DNA of 64,000 bases from Eledone cirrhosa (lineage: Eukaryota). The notes beneath the pieces are model-generated. The model had not been told where the DNA came from. It saw only the letters and a program-made list of their open reading frames with translations, and searched no databases. The position numbers were made by a program, and so were the translations under genes. Every line of letters begins with the position of its first letter. The stretch's first letter is position 1. Location: NCBI GenBank assembly GCA_964016885.1, contig OZ024741.1, positions 330,708,001-330,772,000 on the forward strand, given 5' to 3'. This document shows, piece after piece, positions 218 to 55,621 of the stretch.

Positions 218-2043
218 ATCAGTTCCTGTACACAGCTAAGTATTCTATAAGTCTCTAGCTGTGTCATTCTCGATGAAAGCACTGGATATGTAGTCCTGAT
301 GATTTCTAACAAGAATGAAACGCGTAGATTACTTCCCTTGCTTTTATCGAGAATCTAATTGTAATACGTGACGTATTCTATTCTATAGCGATTAGGTCTT
401 CAAAATGTTTATTATAAACATACAGAATATTTTCGAATATTCTATGTCTATATTCACATATATATCGCTATTTCAGAGCATTTATTCCAATTTCTAATTT
501 CTGCCGGACCGGCAACCGCTCTTTCAAATCAGTTCCTGTACACAGCTAAGTATTCTATAAGTCTCTAGCTGTGTCATTCTCGATGAAAGCACTGGATATG
601 TAGTCCTGATGATTTCTAACAAGAATGAAACGCGTAGATTACTTCCCTTGCTTTTATCGAGAATCTAATTGTAATACGTGACGTATTCTATTCTATAGCG
701 ATTAGGTCTTCAAAATGTTTATTATAAACATACAGAATATTTTCGAATATTCTATGTCTATATTCACATATATATCGCTATTTCAGAGCATTTATTCCAA
801 TTTCTAATTTCTGCCGGACCGGCAACCGCTCTTTCAAATCAGTTCCTGTACACAGCTAAGTATTCTATAAGTCTCTAGCTGTGTCATTCTCGATGAAAGC
901 ACTGGATATGTAGTCCTGATGATTTCTAACAAGAATGAAACGCGTAGATTACTTCCCTTGCTTTTATCGAGAATCTAATTGTAATACGTGACGTATTCTA
1001 TTCTATAGCGATTAGGTCTTCAAAATGTTTATTATAAACATACAGAATATTTTCGAATATTCTATGTCTATATTCACATATATATCGCTATTTCAGAGCA
1101 TTTATTCCAATTTCTAATTTCTGCCGGACCGGCAACCGCTCTTTCAAATCAGTTCCTGTACACAGCTAAGTATTCTATAAGTCTCTAGCTGTGTCATTCT
1201 CGATGAAAGCACTGGATATGTAGTCCTGATGATTTCTAACAAGAATGAAACGCGTAGATTACTTCCCTTGCTTTTATCGAGAATCTAATTGTAATACGTG
1301 ACGTATTCTATTCTATAGCGATTAGGTCTTCAAAATGTTTATTATAAACATACAGAATATTTTCGAATATTCTATGTCTATATTCACATATATATCGCTA
1401 TTTCAGAGCATTTATTCCAATTTCTAATTTCTGCCGGACCGGCAACCGCTCTTTCAAATCAGTTCCTGTACACAGCTAAGTATTCTATAAGTCTCTAGCT
1501 GTGTCATTCTCGATGAAAGCACTGGATATGTAGTCCTGATGATTTCTAACAAGAATGAAACGCGTAGATTACTTCCCTTGCTTTTATCGAGAATCTAATT
1601 GTAATACGTGACGTATTCTATTCTATAGCGATTAGGTCTTCAAAATGTTTATTATAAACATACAGAATATTTTCGAATATTCTATGTCTATATTCACATA
1701 TATATCGCTATTTCAGAGCATTTATTCCAATTTCTAATTTCTGCCGGACCGGCAACCGCTCTTTCAAATCAGTTCCTGTACACAGCTAAGTATTCTATAA
1801 GTCTCTAGCTGTGTCATTCTCGATGAAAGCACTGGATATGTAGTCCTGATGATTTCTAACAAGAATGAAACGCGTAGATTACTTCCCTTGCTTTTATCGA
1901 GAATCTAATTGTAATACGTGACGTATTCTATTCTATAGCGATTAGGTCTTCAAAATGTTTATTATAAACATACAGAATATTTTCGAATATTCTATGTCTA
2001 TATTCACATATATATCGCTATTTCAGAGCATTTATTCCAATTT
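218..2043 (+). mobile_element. Tandem array of 310-bp hammerhead-ribozyme-containing units (retrozyme-like), about 5.9 copies
   Basis: AGTTCCTGTA recurs at 221, 531, 841, 1151, 1461 and 1771 (period 310). Copies look identical by eye. Each has a CTGATGA...GAAA-CGCG-TA core. Flanked on both sides by (TA)n. Confidence 0.85.
266..354 (+). ncRNA. Type I hammerhead ribozyme, copy 1 of 6 (others at +310, +620, +930, +1240, +1550)
   Basis: Stem I GTAGTC(290-295)/GATTAC(327-332); CTGATGA 296-302; stem II TTCT-AACA-AGAA; GAAA 317-320; palindromic stem III A-CGCG-T; GUA cleavage triplet ending at 326; distal stem I 266-281/339-354 (16 bp, one G-U). Confidence 0.85.
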
Positions 2044-4816: not shown

Positions 4817-6395
4817 CTAACAGCGCTGCGATCGAATGTGGCTTTTTAGCCCAGCCAATGATCTAAAATGTCTTGCACAGAGTCGGCAACCAAAACATTC
4901 ACTGGGAATAGTCGGCTGTGGTTGGAGTTCATGTACTTTTGCATGTCGCTTGAGCCCTCCTGCTGATTTACATTCTCTACCACATGCTTGGCAAGCATGA
5001 TGAGTAGCATCTCCAACAGCAGCCTGGTAGTCAACCACTGGTCTTACTTTATGACTGCGAAGATGACTTGCGAGTCCAGCTTTGCTTGGGCAGAGTCTCG
5101 CACAGACGCTGCATGTCAGCACCATAGGAGGACCCACGCCGTCTGGAAGTACACCAGCAATGCCCTTCCTCACATCCCGCTTTACTTTCTCGTATGCGAT
5201 TCGAGATGCCTCAAAGGCAACTTTTCCCTCATATACAGTCTTTCTCCATTTATTACGATCAGCAGCAATATTTTCCCATGTATCAGCAGAGATGTTAGCA
5301 TCTTTCAAAGAGGCTTTCAAGGAATCCTTATACCTCTTTTTTGGTTTATGTGGCGGTCGTTTTCCTTTAACTAACTCTCCATATAAAATAGTTGTTTTGG
5401 TATTCTAGAATCCTTCATCCTGGCAAGGTGACCACTCCAATGGAGTCGTTGCTTAAGCACAAGAGCTTCTTTACTGTCACACATAGAGCTTTCCAAAATC
5501 TCGACATCACTGATGTGATCCCTCCAGTGAACGCCATGGATCCATCCGAGACACATCTGATGGAAACGCTCCAATTGCTTAAGGTGGTGTCGATATGTGA
5601 CCCAGGTCTCGCAGGCATAAAGAAGAGAAGAGAGCACACATGCCTTGTACACCTTTATCTTTGTCTTCTTGCATATGTTTCGCCGACCCCAGAGACGCCT
5701 TTCTAGCTTTCCGAAAGCATCACTTGCTTTCCTAATCCTAAGTGAGATTTCACTATCAAGGTTGCTGTATCAATTGACAGTGCTTCCCAGGTAGACAAAC
5801 TGATCAACCACTCCAAGTCGTTTACCAGACACATAGATATTTGGTTCACTGTACTGCTTACCAGGGGCAGGTTGGTACATGACGACGGTTTTCTTGAGAC
5901 TGACAGTCAATCCTAAGGCAGTGCAAGCGTTAGAAAATGCATTCAAAATGTGCTGCATATCACTCTCTGTGTGCGCTACAAGATCGCAATCATCTGCATA
6001 CAAGAGGTCTCTTATGATTGATGTAAATACTTTTGTCTTTGCAGCAAAGCGCCTGATGTTAAATAAATATGTTGCCTGAGGTTCGATATTGGATGTAAAC
6101 ACCATGCTCACAATTCCTGAATGCAATACAGAAAACCATTGCAAAGTATATGGCAAACAGGGTCGGTGCTGGAATATCCCCCTGTTTCACTCCATTTTTT
6201 ACTGAGATAGGCTCCGACATTAACCCAAGCCTTCATGTAGTCATGGAAAGGCCTAACTATAGCAAGGAACTTATCAGGGTAACCAAGTTTCTGGAGAACC
6301 TTCCATAATGCATTTCTGTTAACAGTATCGAAAGCTTTTGTCAGATCGACAAAAACCTGATACAGATCCAAACCTTGTTCCATGCACTTCTCTAT
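4817..6395 (-). mobile_element. RTE-clade (BovB-like) LINE, 5'-truncated and frameshifted ORF with RT and three C-terminal C2H2-type fingers
   Basis: [40 protein letters not shown] and RIPKQLFY spread over several frames; C-terminus has three CxxC...GLxxH fingers. Confidence 0.9.
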
Positions 6396-21577: not shown

Positions 21578-21710
21578 CTAAATAAGGTTTAACAAGCGTG
21601 TGTTCTCTTTTCAGGTAATCTTTCGTGTTCCATTCCCCCAAGACTGTAGAAAAGGTGGTAAATAGAAGAGTGAAGAGAAAATATTCGATACAGACCGCTA
21701 GAGAAGCCAT
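21578..21710 (-). CDS. LMAN2: VIP36/LMAN2-family L-type lectin, coding exon 1 (signal peptide and start of lectin domain)
   Basis: ATG at 21710; MASLAVCIEYFLFTLLFTTFSTVLG-EWNTKDYLKREHTLVKPYL(G); KREHxLxKPY is the family N-terminal motif; donor G|GTAAGT at 21577. Confidence 0.88.
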
Positions 21711-23970: not shown

Positions 23971-24171
23971 TGTACCAACTGTTGAGTACTACTTATCTGA
24001 TATATGCATAGTTTTATTGTTCTACAATATTGTAGAACAATAAAACTATGCATATATCAGATAAGTAGCACTCAACAATTGGTACATATATATATATATG
24101 TACCAATTGTTGAGTGCTACTTATCTGATATATGCATAGTTTTATTGTTCTACAATATTACTCACCTCCTA
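23971..24171. repeat. Direct-inverted-direct triplication of a ~58-70-bp Penelope-like terminal segment
   Basis: Palindrome centre at 24028/24029, second centre in (TA)n 24086-24099; 57/70 identical to the reverse complement of 28761-28830. Confidence 0.8.
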
Positions 24172-24519
24172 TATATATGTGTGTGTATATATATTCCCCG
24201 TCTAACACATGCTAGCGTGGAAGAACGGACGTAAAACGGTGATGATAATGATATATTAAGTCCTTAAGTATGAAATGTTCGATTTCCTTATGCACTTTCA
24301 ATTTGAAATCGGATATTTCATACTTAATGATCTGTATAGTGTGATCTGTGTGTGTGTGTATATATAACTTTGATAGGTTTCGGCCAGTATTGGCCCAGGC
24401 CATGTCTAACTTAATAGCACCATATATATATATACATATATATATCATGATCATCACTGTTTAAACGTCTATTTCCTATGCTTGCATGGGTTAGATGGGT
24501 CACTCACGTCATGAGACAA

Positions 24520-28647: not shown

Positions 28648-28678
<31 letters not shown>

Positions 28679-28705
28679 TATGTATATCTTATAGTCAGTA
28701 TTTTG

Positions 28706-28759
<54 letters not shown>

Positions 28760-28885
28760 GTAGGAGGTGAGTTTTATTGTAGTACAATAAAGCAATGCAG
28801 ATATCGGACAAGAAGTACTCTACAGTTTGTAGGACTGGAGTATATATAATATATAAGAACAAAAGATGGTTAAAAGAGTTCCATG

Positions 28886-28956
28886 TATTTTATTATGCGC
28901 ATTTCAAAAACAAATATCATCATGCAATAATATTTGTGTTTTCATCAGATAAAACA
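28886..28956 (-). ncRNA. Type I hammerhead ribozyme (mirror copy)
   Basis: Reverse complement of 29075-29145. Confidence 0.78.
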
Positions 28957-29074
28957 GGAGGACATGATATGAAGGTTAAAAAACACTTGTGGATAGTTCA
29001 GTTTTAAATCAACATATGTTGATTTAAAACTGAACTATCCACAAGTGTTTTTTAGCCTCCATATCATGTCCTCC

Positions 29075-29145
29075 TGTTTTATCTGATGAAAACACAAATA
29101 TTATTGCATGATGATATTTGTTTTTGAAATGCGCATAATAAAATA
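29075..29145 (+). ncRNA. Type I hammerhead ribozyme
   Basis: Stem I TGTTTTAT/ATAAAATA; CTGATGA 29083-89; stem II ACAAATATTATT-GCAT-GATGATATTTGT; GAAA 29126-29; palindromic stem III A-TGCGCA-T; AUA cleavage triplet ending at 29137. Confidence 0.8.
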
Positions 29146-29175
29146 CATGGAACTCTTTTAACCATCTTTTGTTCT

Positions 29176-29217
<42 letters not shown>

Positions 29218-29380
29218 TCATCATCATCATCATCATCATTTTACGTCCGCTTTTTCCTTAGATAGATAGATATTATTTATTAAAATTAAATGAGAAAATT
29301 GGGCATTAGTGACTAATTAACTTTTAATTAATATATATATATTCAATTAATGTATATATATATATATATACATTATATTT

Positions 29381-30797
29381 TAGCACAACTAATTAGAGAA
29401 AGGGTCAAACTAGATGAGATGCAGTTTGGTTTTGTGCCTGGGAAGAGTACAACAGATGCCCTCTTCTTGGTGAGACAAATGCAAGAGAGGTTCTTAGAGA
29501 AGAATAAGCCACTATACTTAGCCTTTGTTGACCTAGAGAAGGCCTTTGATAGGGTACCCCGATCTGTCATCTGGTGGTCCCTAAGGAAGCTGGGTGTTGA
29601 GGAATGGCTTGTAAGGACAGTGCAAACTTTGTACAGAGGTACTCTCAGTAAAGTCAGGGTAGGAATGGAGTTTAGTGAGGAATTCCAGATACAAGTAGGA
29701 GTACATCAGGGTTCGGTCCTCAGCCCGCTCTTGTTCATTATAGTCCTCCAAGCCATAACAGAGGAGTTTAAGACTGGCTGTCCATGGGAACTTCTCTATG
29801 CTGACGATCTGGCTCTTATGGCAGAATCAGTAGAGGAGCTAGAGAATAAATTCCGGCTATGGAAACAGCAGTTGGAAGCAAGAGGACTGAGAGTAAATCT
29901 AGCTAAGACAAAAGTGTTGATGAGTAGAAAAGAGGACAAAACCCTGATTCCGTCAGGGAAATGGCCATGTTCGATATGCAGAAAAGGAACTGGCATAAAT
30001 TCTATAAAATGCACACAATGTAGGTCCTGGGTACACAAGAGATGTAGCGGGATAGCAGGCAAACTAACAGGTAGGGAGAAATATGTATGCAGTAGATGTA
30101 CAGGGAAATTAGACAGTAGAAGTCGCACTGATAGACACATTTTTCAAATGCGAGAGGGCGCTATAGAAGTGGTGGATAGCTTCCGGTACCTAGGAGATCA
30201 GATTAGCATGGGAGGAGGGTGTTCCGAGGCCATAGTATCTAGAATAAGGACGGGTTGGAAGAAGTTTAGGGAGCTGCTTCCTCTGTTGACGAAGAAGGGT
30301 TTCTCCCTGCGTACGAAAGGCCGGTTGTATGATGCCTGTGTGAGGAGCGCGATGCTGCATGGTAGTGAGACATGGGCAGCTACCGCAGAAGATATGTGAC
30401 GGCTGGAGAGAAATGAGGCAAGCATGCTCCGTTGGATGTGCAGTGTAAATGTGCGTGAACGACCCAGCATAAATGTGTTGAGAGAGAAACTGTGTCTGAG
30501 AGGGATAGAATGTAGTGTACGGGAGAGGAGACTGAGGTGGTATGGACATGTGATGCGCATGGAGGATGACTGATGGGTGAAGAAGTGCCAGGAAATGCCA
30601 GTTGAAGGAAGACGTGGTAGAGGTAGACCACAAAAAACATGGGCGGAGGTGGTGAGAACAGACCTCAGATCATTGAAGCTCACGGTGGAGATGACGGGGG
30701 ACCGTGACGAGTGGAGAGATGCTGTGCTGAATAAGACCGGTCCCACCCTTGCAAGCAGGGAAAAGCGGACGTAAAATGATGATGATGATGATGATGA
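29381..30797 (+). mobile_element. RTE-clade LINE, 5'-truncated, relatively young (long RT ORF with premature stops)
   Basis: QFGFVPGKSTTDA, FVDLEKAFDRV, GVHQGSVLSP, LLYADD and an internal Cys-rich module; TGA stops; (GAT)n tail. Confidence 0.93.
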
Positions 30798-30808
30798 CAT
30801 TAATTGAA

Positions 30809-38943: not shown

Positions 38944-39430
38944 ATGCTTTATGGATTGACAACATTTCAACTTTGGCGATATGTCCCCAGTCGTTCTTCA
39001 TCCTATGGAGTGAGGTCGTTTCATGAAGGGCAGAAATTATCGATGCACCTCAACTTTCCTGGGAATTTGACAACTCGAATGTTTAGAACGAATCTAAGTT
39101 TAACACGGAAAGCATTTATATTCGGTCCCGGTGGCATGACATCTCTACTATCAGGTTATTTACAGCGAAACAGTGTCACCTATTGTGGGGCACTTCGCCG
39201 CCACGTCTGTCAGTCTCAATACCAATTAAAACACTGGCCCCCTTTAATAAACACCCTTAGAACTTACTGCTCAGGTCGAAATTTAGTTCTTCGAGGTGGA
39301 CGTAATAGGTCTTGTTCTAAAACTATCGACAAGAATACATTTCAGATCAAACAATATGCTAAAGTACCCCATAGATCGGACTTAAGAAGACTGCTGGGGC
39401 TGGCTAAAGGAGAAAAATGGAAGATACTTG
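38944..39430 (+). CDS. ABCB10: ABCB10 mitochondrial ABC transporter, exon 1 (presequence)
   Basis: ATG 38944; R/S-rich, acid-poor N-terminus; ends DLRRLLGLAKGEKWKIL(G); donor G|GTAAGG; phase 1 fits exon 2. Start codon choice is inferred. Confidence 0.85.
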
Positions 39431-40278: not shown

Positions 40279-40314
40279 TCTTCTGATGAAGAACTAGCGT
40301 CCGAAACGTTAAGA
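40279..40314 (+). ncRNA. Minimal type I hammerhead-like motif (Penelope-type)
   Basis: TCTT-CTGATGA-AGAACTAGCGTCC-GAAA-CGTT-AAGA; palindromic AACGTT stem III; only a 4-bp stem I and an imperfect stem II. Confidence 0.55.
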
Positions 40315-40395
40315 CCCTCTTCCTGCTATATCAAGCGTTAACCTAATATATCCCTTCCATATACTGTACCGATTGTGTTGTTATTTCTATTTACC

Positions 40396-51861: not shown

Positions 51862-52176
51862 GTGAGTATCTTCCTAGAATTGTCTCTACATTTTCATGTT
51901 TCCTTGTGGTTGAGTAATGATATGCATGCCTTCTGATGAAAATCCAATTAGATCTGAAAATCGATTAAGGGTGTTAATCAATTTTTTCAATTTACAGGAA
52001 AATTCGTATTTTCTGGCATGTGTACATGCCTACATATTAGATATATGTATATAGTTATACATGTTGGTGCAGTCTTGGTTACACACTGTATTTATACAGA
52101 TGTAACTTTAACATGTGTGTGTGTATGTGTTTAATTTATATGTATTTAAACTGAAATTGGAAGTTTTTCTTTTTAG

Positions 52177-54367: not shown

Positions 54368-55621
54368 GGATACAGTATACCTATTGTAAACCAGATGCAT
54401 ATTGGGATACAGTGTTCCTATTTTAAACCAGATTCACACTGGGATACAGTGTGCCTATTCTAAACTAAATACACACAAGGATACAGTGTGCCTATTCTAA
54501 ACCAGATTCACACTGGGATACAGTGTGCCTATTCTAAACCAGATTCACACTGGGATACAGTGTGCCTATTCTAAACTAGATACACACAAGGATACAGTGT
54601 GCCTATTCTAAATCAGATTCACACTGGGATATAGTGTGCCTATTCTAAATCAGATTCACACTGGAATACAGTGTGCCTATTCTAAACTAAATACACACAA
54701 GGATACAGTGTGCCTATTCTAAACCAGATTCACACTGGAATACAGTGTGCCTATTCTAAATCAGATTCACACTGGGATACAGTGTGCCTATTCTAAACCA
54801 GATTCACACTGCGATACAGTGTGCCTATTCTAAACTAAATACACACACGGATACAGTGTGCCTATTCTAAACCAGATTCACACTGGGATACAGTGTGCCT
54901 ATTCTAAACTAGATACACACAAGGATACAGTGTGCCTATTCTAAATCAGATTCACACTGGGATATAGTGTGCCTATTCTAAATCAGATTCACACTGGGAT
55001 ACAGTGTGCCTATTCTAAACTAAATACACACAAGGATACAGTGTGCCTATTCTAAACCAGATTCACACTGGAATACAGTGTGCCTATTCTAAATCAGATT
55101 CACACTGGGATACAGTGTGCCTATTCTAAACCAGATTCACACTGCGATACAGTGTGCCTATTCTAAACTAAATACACACACGGATACAGTGTGCCTATTC
55201 TAAACCAGATTCACACTGGGATACAGTGTGCCTATTCTAAACTAGATACACACAAGGATACAGTGTGCCTATTCTAAATCAGATTCACACTAGGATACAG
55301 TGTGCCTATTCTAAATCAGATTCACACTGGGATACAGTGTGCCTATTCTAAATCAGATTCACACTGGGATACAGTGTGCCTATTCTAAACTAGATACACA
55401 CAAGGATAGTGTGCCTATTCTAAACCAGATTCACACTGGGATACAGTGTGCCTATTCTAAATCAGATTCACACTGGGATACAGTGTGCCTATTCTAAATC
55501 AGATTCATACTGGGATACAGTGTGCCTATTCTAAACCAGATTCACACTGGAATACAGTGTGCCTATTCTAAACCAGATTCACACTGGAATACAGTGTGCC
55601 TATTCTAAACCAGATACACAC
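54368..55621. repeat. 37-bp minisatellite, about 34 copies
   Basis: GGATACAGTGTGCCTATTCTAAACCAGATTCACACTG, period 37. Confidence 0.95.

What the first reader, a model, noticed from the sequence alone, without database searches (positions are those of the whole stretch)
28760..29190. Spacerless 350-bp palindrome encoding two outward-reading hammerhead ribozymes
Seen in sequence: 175-bp arms with only two mismatches found, centred on AACAT|ATGTT. Each strand encodes TGTTTTAT-CTGATGA-[long stem II with G-U pairs]-GAAA-TGCGCA-TA-ATAAAATA. This is unrelated in primary sequence to the 310-bp array but has the same type I design with a palindromic stem III. The left arm continues about 80 bp further to a 3' terminus, and both ends fall in (TA)n. 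Established knowledge: Penelope-like elements carry hammerheads in their terminal repeats and often integrate with an inverted truncated repeat. Inference: a read-through transcript would fold into a long dsRNA hairpin that masks its own ribozyme. It lies between the divergent LMAN2 and ABCB10 starts.
Basis: partly seen in the sequence, partly recalled or inferred. Interest (0 to 1): 0.75.

Follow-up and report, generated by a model that had tools for sequence, protein, structure and literature searches.

The report
Back-to-back stub of Penelope retrotransposon
This 350-base palindrome is real but ordinary: two head-to-head stubs of a very abundant Penelope-like jumping gene, each with a hammerhead-ribozyme motif (cutting untested) and with a centre shared by hundreds of other sites in this genome, likely made when the element's RNA was copied twice, once from each end of a break in TA-repeat DNA.

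Summary
The palindrome is real: centre 29015|29016, 175-bp arms, two mismatches. It is two head-to-head copies of the ribozyme-bearing terminal repeat (pLTR) of a Penelope-like element (PLE) with most Hydra-clade protein motifs, inserted in (TA)n. Parent copies with an intact 809-aa ORF exist. It is not special: a 22-mer of its hammerhead has 16,534 exact hits, and its exact 22-nt centre occurs at 867 sites. Inverted pLTRs, a one-sided tail and hammerheads on both strands are all in print. The family statistics add mechanism. Of 46 two-armed insertions, 43 have one arm with the 88-nt tail and one without. In 24 of those 43 neither arm contains the other, and 29 of 86 arm starts fall in one 8-nt window. 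This favours two cDNAs, primed from both ends of the cut at two fixed RNA sites, running to the RNA's likely 5' end and annealing over ATAT. Rfam finds no hammerhead; cleavage and transcription are untested. Masking by a hairpin is predicted only. Flanking genes start 7 and 10 kb away. The scan reported this layout and reading before on other DNA of this genome.

The parts
28711..28757 (.). (TA)n target, left side
   Evidence: sequence, tandem repeat row 28648-28757
28758..29017 (-). Tailed arm: pLTR from the 5'-end hotspot (ATATG) through the hammerhead to the end of the tail
   Evidence: 97% identical to the inverted copy of parent locus L035
28758..28845 (-). 88-nt tail; in full elements this is the sequence between the pLTR and the ORF start; two predicted hairpins
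   Evidence: L035 layout; family copies; fold
28886..28956 (-). Type I hammerhead motif, mirror copy; predicted cut after 28894
   Evidence: mirror of 29075-29145
29014..29017 (.). Self-complementary ATAT shared by both arms; family 5'-end hotspot, inferred RNA start
29014..29185 (+). Tailless arm: pLTR from the hotspot to the short 3' end
   Evidence: 98% identical to the 3' pLTR of L035
29075..29145 (+). Type I hammerhead motif: stem I 29075-82/29138-45, core 29083-89, long stem II 29090-29125, GAAA 29126-29, 8-nt palindromic stem III 29129-36, predicted cut after A29137
29186..29215 (.). (TA)n target, right side
   Evidence: sequence, tandem repeat row 29176-29215

Best explanation
The palindrome is one insertion of an abundant (TA)n-targeting Penelope-like retrotransposon, made of two head-to-head copies of its hammerhead-bearing end, and it likely arose by double-ended target-primed reverse transcription. 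Shown: parentage, copy numbers, the one-tailed/one-tailless rule, independent arm lengths, the 5'-end hotspot, repeated origin across subfamilies. Inferred: the endonuclease cuts both strands in (TA)n; each 3'-OH primes a cDNA, one at the tail end and one 88 nt further 5'; here both ran to the RNA's 5' end, whose first bases ATAT are self-complementary, so the two cDNA ends annealed and were filled in without a spacer. The two ribozymes are a by-product; each would need a dimer through its palindromic stem III, or the element's protein, to cut.
For: Polarity: each arm, read from its flank inward, is antisense to the element, as cDNA from a target 3'-OH would be. Tail rule: in 65 loci covering the first 100 hits, 43 units have one tailed and one tailless arm, 2 have two tails, 1 is ambiguous, none has two tailless arms; 21 loci were unresolved. 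In 51 same-centre loci: 45 tail+tailless, 6 called tailless twice, 0 two tails; of the 38 with two full arms, 37 by script and the 38th (L133) by eye. Independence: in 24 of 43 units the tailless arm reaches at least 15 nt further 5' than the tailed arm, and in 9 the tailed arm is almost tail alone, so neither arm can be a copy of the other. Hotspot: 29 of 86 arm starts in one 8-nt window against 1.7 expected; 5,377 genome-wide non-native junctions at that point; 13 of 15 shown joints in public-run contigs touch 29013-29017 (41 more not shown). Repeated origin: 27 haplotypes among 38 palindromes; palindromes and long copies interleave on a tree, 23 label changes, at least 8 forced. In vitro a PLE protein cuts and extends both strands and starts at two fixed internal sites that bound the tail (PMC11167929, parts 1-2 of 4 read).
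Against: No experiment on this family. Two, possibly three, units carry two tails, and about nine unresolved loci look solo. The 43-unit table was read off by hand from BLAST hits, on the first 40 Mb of one contig. The RNA start is inferred. A cap-derived extra G is only suggestive: 41 G, 44 T, 15 A in the first 100 non-native junctions (hand count), and several G's are explained by the partner arm; 14 G against 8 C after A/T-only flanks (hand count after setting aside 78 native-type rows). Arms within a locus are much alike (2.2 differences against 10.8 between loci; private shared variants in 9 of 38), which also fits fold-back copying or later arm homogenisation. For this locus alone, fold-back cannot be excluded because the short arm is contained in the long one.
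Confidence: 0.7

Rival explanations
1. Self-priming or fold-back: one strand is made, snaps back at its end and is copied to give the second arm (self-priming on an antisense template is the published proposal).
For: PMC3846280 discussion (section 11 read) reads palindromes at inverted junctions this way. Arms are near-identical within loci and share private variants in 9 of 38. In this locus the short arm lies within the long one.
Against: 24 of 43 units are non-nested and 9 have a tail-only partner. A spacerless turn needs a primer with no paired bases. Fixed outer ends on both arms are not explained.
Confidence: 0.15
2. The palindrome is itself a non-autonomous unit that spreads whole (MITE- or retrozyme-like).
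For: 867 identical centres; 9 of 43 units have both arms at the hotspot, about twice what independent truncation gives; weak clustering on the tree (17 of 500 shuffles as low) and one clade of 5 palindromes.
Against: Palindromes interleave with ORF-linked copies, including identical haplotypes; many near-centre junction variants with small fillers exist; arm lengths form a continuum up to 3 kb.
Confidence: 0.07
3. The locus was kept for a host function: a dsRNA, editing or siRNA source, or a ribozyme switch for the flanking genes.
For: A read-through RNA is predicted to form a 170-bp hairpin; both hammerhead cores are intact.
Against: Young copy (1 difference from a long copy) among hundreds alike; 7.0 and 9.8 kb from the gene starts in a repeat-filled interval; arm differences across 38 loci show no A/G excess (11 of 72; L139 left out), though DNA does not test editing.
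Confidence: 0.05
4. Assembly or amplification artefact (fold-back chimera).
For: No raw read across the centre could be examined.
Against: Unique, different flanks; biological asymmetry (tail on one arm only); two mismatches; the same centre in 867 places; hotspot joints also seen in contigs of a public run.
Confidence: 0.03

Closest known systems
Hydra clade of C-terminal EN+ Penelope-like elements (Craig et al. 2021, PMC8557442; passages, section 11 and supplement part 2 read)
   Same: DKT motif, CxCX5C linker, CxxC and CxH around conserved E and N, no CCHH, (TA)n target, hammerhead in the pLTR. Penelope-13_HM has an inverted 5'-truncated copy with a hammerhead on both strands; an octopus member (Hydra-1_Obim) is listed.
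   Different: RW followed by T or I rather than K; unit about 3.3 kb against generally <3 kb; hammerhead sequence unlike Hydra-1_Obim, with a 15-bp stem II; tail 88 nt against the 30-40 bp stated for PLEs; over 16,000 arms.
Inverted pLTR with one-sided tail in Penelope elements (PMC3846280, passages and discussion; PMC8557442 fig. 2 legend; PMC2377424, passages)
   Same: Head-to-head inverted 5'-truncated copy, tail on one end, palindromes at the junction, Inr-like pLTR promoter.
   Different: Here both arms are often ORF-less and stop at one base, giving a perfect spacerless palindrome hundreds of times; the statistics argue against the self-priming proposed there.
Minimal/dimeric type I hammerheads of metazoan PLEs (Cervera and de la Pena 2014, PMC4209133, passages)
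   Same: Type I, long helix II, palindromic helix III; dual motifs 100-700 bp apart on opposite strands already noted; low activity in vitro, none as a monomer for the motif tested.
   Different: A-U or G-U instead of G10.1-C11.1; no extra nucleotide between 9 and 10.1; AUA cleavage triplet; 8-bp helix I.
Poseidon PAc in vitro mechanism (Frangieh et al. 2024, PMC11167929)
   Same: Two fixed RT start sites bounding the tail, AT-rich cuts, both strands extended, predicted dimer.
   Different: Other clade; the two parts read report no strand difference in start site and do not derive inverted pairs from it.
L1 twin priming (recalled, not from a call)
   Same: Two primings from two target strands give an inversion joined by microhomology.
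   Different: In L1 the second priming site is variable and the two pieces do not overlap; here both sites are fixed and the arms overlap.

Membership tests
EN+ Penelope-like element | Single ORF with RT and C-terminal GIY-YIG-type endonuclease linked to this terminal repeat | tested here: met
   L035 and L216-L219: pLTR-tail-ORF-pLTR, 809 aa from first Met, YRDDG and IY..YFG motifs. Pfam gave no RT hit for P0001 and only a weak GIY-YIG hit (E 6e-4) for a related family, so the call rests on motifs and four unnamed homologues.
EN+ Penelope-like element | pLTRs in partial tandem or inverted arrangement, tail at one end | tested here: met
Hydra clade | DKT in place of DKG | tested here: met
   SDKTN at 143
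Hydra clade | CxCX5C linker; CxxC and CxH around E and N; CCHH absent | tested here: met
   CNCRIKNKC, CNLCLNE, N..CLH; one Cys only inside the GIY-YIG core
Hydra clade | RWK motif | tested here: inconclusive
   RWT or RWI here; RWK in a related family in L038, RWR in three homologues
Hydra clade | Insertion in (TA)n | tested here: met
Hydra clade | Placement in the RT phylogeny with reference Hydra proteins | not tested
   no reference proteins were fetched
Type I hammerhead ribozyme | Core CUGANGA, GAAA, NUH and three helices | tested here: met
   98.9% of cells paired in 35 hand-picked of 99 core-filtered variants, against 34-62% for slid controls
Type I hammerhead ribozyme | Compensatory covariation | tested here: inconclusive
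   11 pairs change on one side only, none on both; score equals shuffles; copies too close
Type I hammerhead ribozyme | Rfam hammerhead model score | tested here: not met
   no hammerhead row at gathering score or among 36 matches to E 10; the 310-bp unit is missed too
Type I hammerhead ribozyme | Self-cleavage | not testable with these tools
   needs an in vitro assay
Non-LTR retrozyme | Head-to-tail tandem units each with a type I hammerhead | tested here: not met
   head-to-head and ORF-linked; definition from bioRxiv 10.64898/2026.07.22.740005, part 1 of 5 read

The most novel reading that the evidence does not exclude
PLE insertion is intrinsically double-ended and asymmetric: one ribonucleoprotein primes one cDNA at each end of the tail from opposite target strands, so inverted pLTRs are the normal product. 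In this family a self-complementary RNA start turns the process into a factory for hundreds of perfect 340-bp hairpin loci, a potential genome-wide dsRNA source.
Probability: 0.5. Interest if true: 0.6.

Novelty: new member of a known kind. Interest (0 to 1): 0.33.

Why it matters
The locus itself matters little. The family does: how PLEs make their inverted repeats is named as open in PMC8557442, and the published idea is self-priming (PMC3846280). A young family with intact ORFs, thousands of arms, two fixed 3' ends and one 5' hotspot gives sharp predictions for an in vitro system like that of PMC11167929. It also means that spacerless hammerhead palindromes in this genome should be annotated as PLE stubs, not as new RNA genes or microRNA precursors.

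Tried and rejected
Rfam: only hairpin-driven microRNA matches below their gathering scores at the centre; rejected. Folding energy of the hammerhead alone is not unusual (z -0.8 to -0.9). An early idea that arms differ recurrently at one position (T/C, 44 nt from the centre) because of two templates or editing was dropped: it came from ranking by my query, and the C variant is seen in only 1 of 74 scored arms of the unbiased set. The cap-G test was confounded by a subfamily with an A/T-rich native upstream. No RNA holder was listed, so expression, cleavage ends, editing and siRNAs were not examined. Contigs of four runs cover the family but no listed piece spans the locus. A sequence look-up in earlier findings returned nothing. 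Paper searches for twin priming in Penelope (2 listings, neither on PLE mechanism by title and abstract start), head-to-head/both strands and octopus with Penelope and hammerhead or editing found no paper deriving PLE inversions from double priming; subscription journals are not covered and bioRxiv supplements are closed. The dimer-cleavage paper of Lunse et al. 2017 is recalled and was seen only as a phrase in listings.

Full report
Observation. The palindrome is as described: centre 29015|29016, no spacer, 175-bp arms, two mismatches. Each strand reads outward through a type I hammerhead motif with an 8-bp stem I, a 15-bp stem II rich in G-U pairs, an 8-nt self-complementary stem III and an AUA triplet, with the predicted cut after 29137 (mirror 28894). 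Rfam reports no hammerhead here or in the 310-bp array. The left arm continues 88 nt to a sharp end at 28758, and both ends abut (TA)n.

What it is. One arm has 59 matches among the 40 of 97 candidates scored in the window's own 3.0-Gb genome, many in head-to-head pairs. A 22-mer of the hammerhead has 16,534 exact hits, control 0. Longer loci gave the parent. L035 reads: (TA)n, inverted copy with tail, direct pLTR plus tail, ORF, 3' UTR, pLTR without tail, (TA)n; the unit is about 3.3 kb. The tail is therefore the sequence between pLTR and ORF start. Four further loci hold an open frame of 809 aa from the first Met with YRDDG, SDKTN, a CxCX5C linker, CxxC..E and N..CxH. These match the Hydra clade as defined in PMC8557442 (section 11), except RWT/RWI for RWK; no tree with reference proteins was built, and Pfam does not recognise the RT. 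That paper's supplement (part 2 of 59) lists an octopus Hydra family with a different hammerhead and a Hydra element with an inverted 5' copy bearing a hammerhead on both strands. That this genome is an octopus is my untested guess.

The locus is one of many. Its exact 22-nt centre occurs at 867 sites; the native read-through junction at 5,417; non-native junctions at the same base at 5,377. I examined the window plus the first 50 of the 867: 45 tail+tailless, 6 tailless twice by script, none with two tails. Thirteen were dropped because one arm is cut short or interrupted; of the 38 left, 37 are tail+tailless and L133 is too by eye. They fall in 27 haplotypes, and on a tree of 44 palindrome arms and 49 longer copies the label changes 23 times, at least 8 forced by well-supported branches; clustering is weak but present (17 of 500 shuffles). 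The palindrome has formed many times rather than spread as one unit.

Mechanism. In 65 loci covering the first 100 hits, BLAST against two natural pieces of L035, tabulated by hand, gives 43 units with one tailed and one tailless arm, 2 with two tails, 1 ambiguous and none with two tailless arms; 21 loci were unresolved, about nine of which look solo. In 24 of 43 the tailless arm reaches at least 15 nt further 5' than the tailed arm, and in 9 the tailed arm is nearly tail alone, so neither arm can be copied from the other. Of 86 arm starts, 29 lie in an 8-nt window at ATATG (1.7 expected); contigs of a public run show the same pile-up in 13 of 15 shown joints. Each arm is antisense when read inward from its flank, which is what priming from the two 3'-OH ends of a break gives. 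PMC11167929 (parts 1-2 of 4) shows a PLE protein cutting and extending both strands and starting at two fixed sites that bound the tail. I infer two cDNAs, one from each tail end, that here both ran off the RNA's 5' end and annealed through ATAT. The hotspot sits in an initiator-like context (TCA, motif recalled), and Drosophila Penelope has an internal promoter with an Inr (PMC2377424, passages). An extra G at junctions, expected from a cap, is only suggestive.

Against this. Arms within a locus differ by 2.2 positions against 10.8 between loci, and 9 of 38 share private variants. This fits one RNA template, but also fold-back or later homogenisation. For this locus alone fold-back is not excluded. 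The published reading of such junctions is self-priming on an antisense template (PMC3846280, passages and section 11). Nothing was tested at the bench.

The ribozyme. In 35 variants that I picked from 99 core-filtered ones, 98.9% of cells pair and 11 pairs change on one side only; there is no two-sided change and the covariation score equals shuffles. The isolated motif folds no better than shuffles. Stem I has probability 0.01-0.03 in single-arm RNAs and 0 in the read-through hairpin of -287.5 kcal/mol; two stem III palindromes pair at -10.5 kcal/mol. This fits the dimeric, weakly active PLE hammerheads of PMC4209133 (passages) and the protein-assisted one of PMC11167929. Masking by the hairpin is thus predicted, but is a by-product.

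Context. An LMAN2/VIP36-like exon starts near 21710 on the minus strand (weak, E 0.19), ABC-transporter exons lie to the right with a likely first exon near 38944, and an RT-bearing LINE begins 140 bp right of the palindrome. The starts are about 7.0 and 9.8 kb away; I see no link.

Known and new. PLE pLTR hammerheads, inverted 5'-truncated copies, a tail on one end and (TA)n targeting are in print (PMC8557442, passages). My searches found no paper that derives the inversion from double priming; coverage is limited to open papers. Earlier notes of this scan reached the same reading on other DNA of this genome; I had stated it before looking, and they are not independent support. Verdict: a real, ordinary insertion of a new, very abundant PLE family, with useful mechanistic statistics. 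Interest 0.33.

Noticed in passing
window 23973-24174: Three alternating copies (sense, antisense, sense) of a tail fragment of a related subfamily (85% to this tail), between (TA)n runs; it gives the spurious mir-15 hit at 24050-24135.
   Followed up: partly
window 218-2043: 5.9 identical copies of a 310-bp unit, each with a type I hammerhead motif (GUA triplet, 6-nt palindromic stem III): retrozyme-like array, unrelated in sequence.
   Followed up: partly
window 40283-40320 and 51933-51970: Two further minimal hammerhead-like cores of other sequence, possibly ends of other PLE families.
   Followed up: no
L038:525-3203: A second, related PLE family with RWK, DKT and CxCX5C motifs, frameshifted.
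   Followed up: partly
G000, one search list; L216-L219: Several copies with an 821-codon open frame; the family is young and may be active. The linker between RT and endonuclease is asparagine-rich, recalling the N-rich inserts of PMC3846280.
   Followed up: partly
L101:7023-8879: One insertion sits directly in the (TA)n end of another, and carries two tails.
   Followed up: no
window 29216-29260 and 29332-30800: An (ATC)n run that looks like the 3' tip of a LINE abuts the right flank, followed by an RT-bearing LINE ORF with a PHD finger.
   Followed up: no
window 54368-55621: 34 copies of a 37-bp unit inside an intron of the ABC-transporter gene.
   Followed up: no
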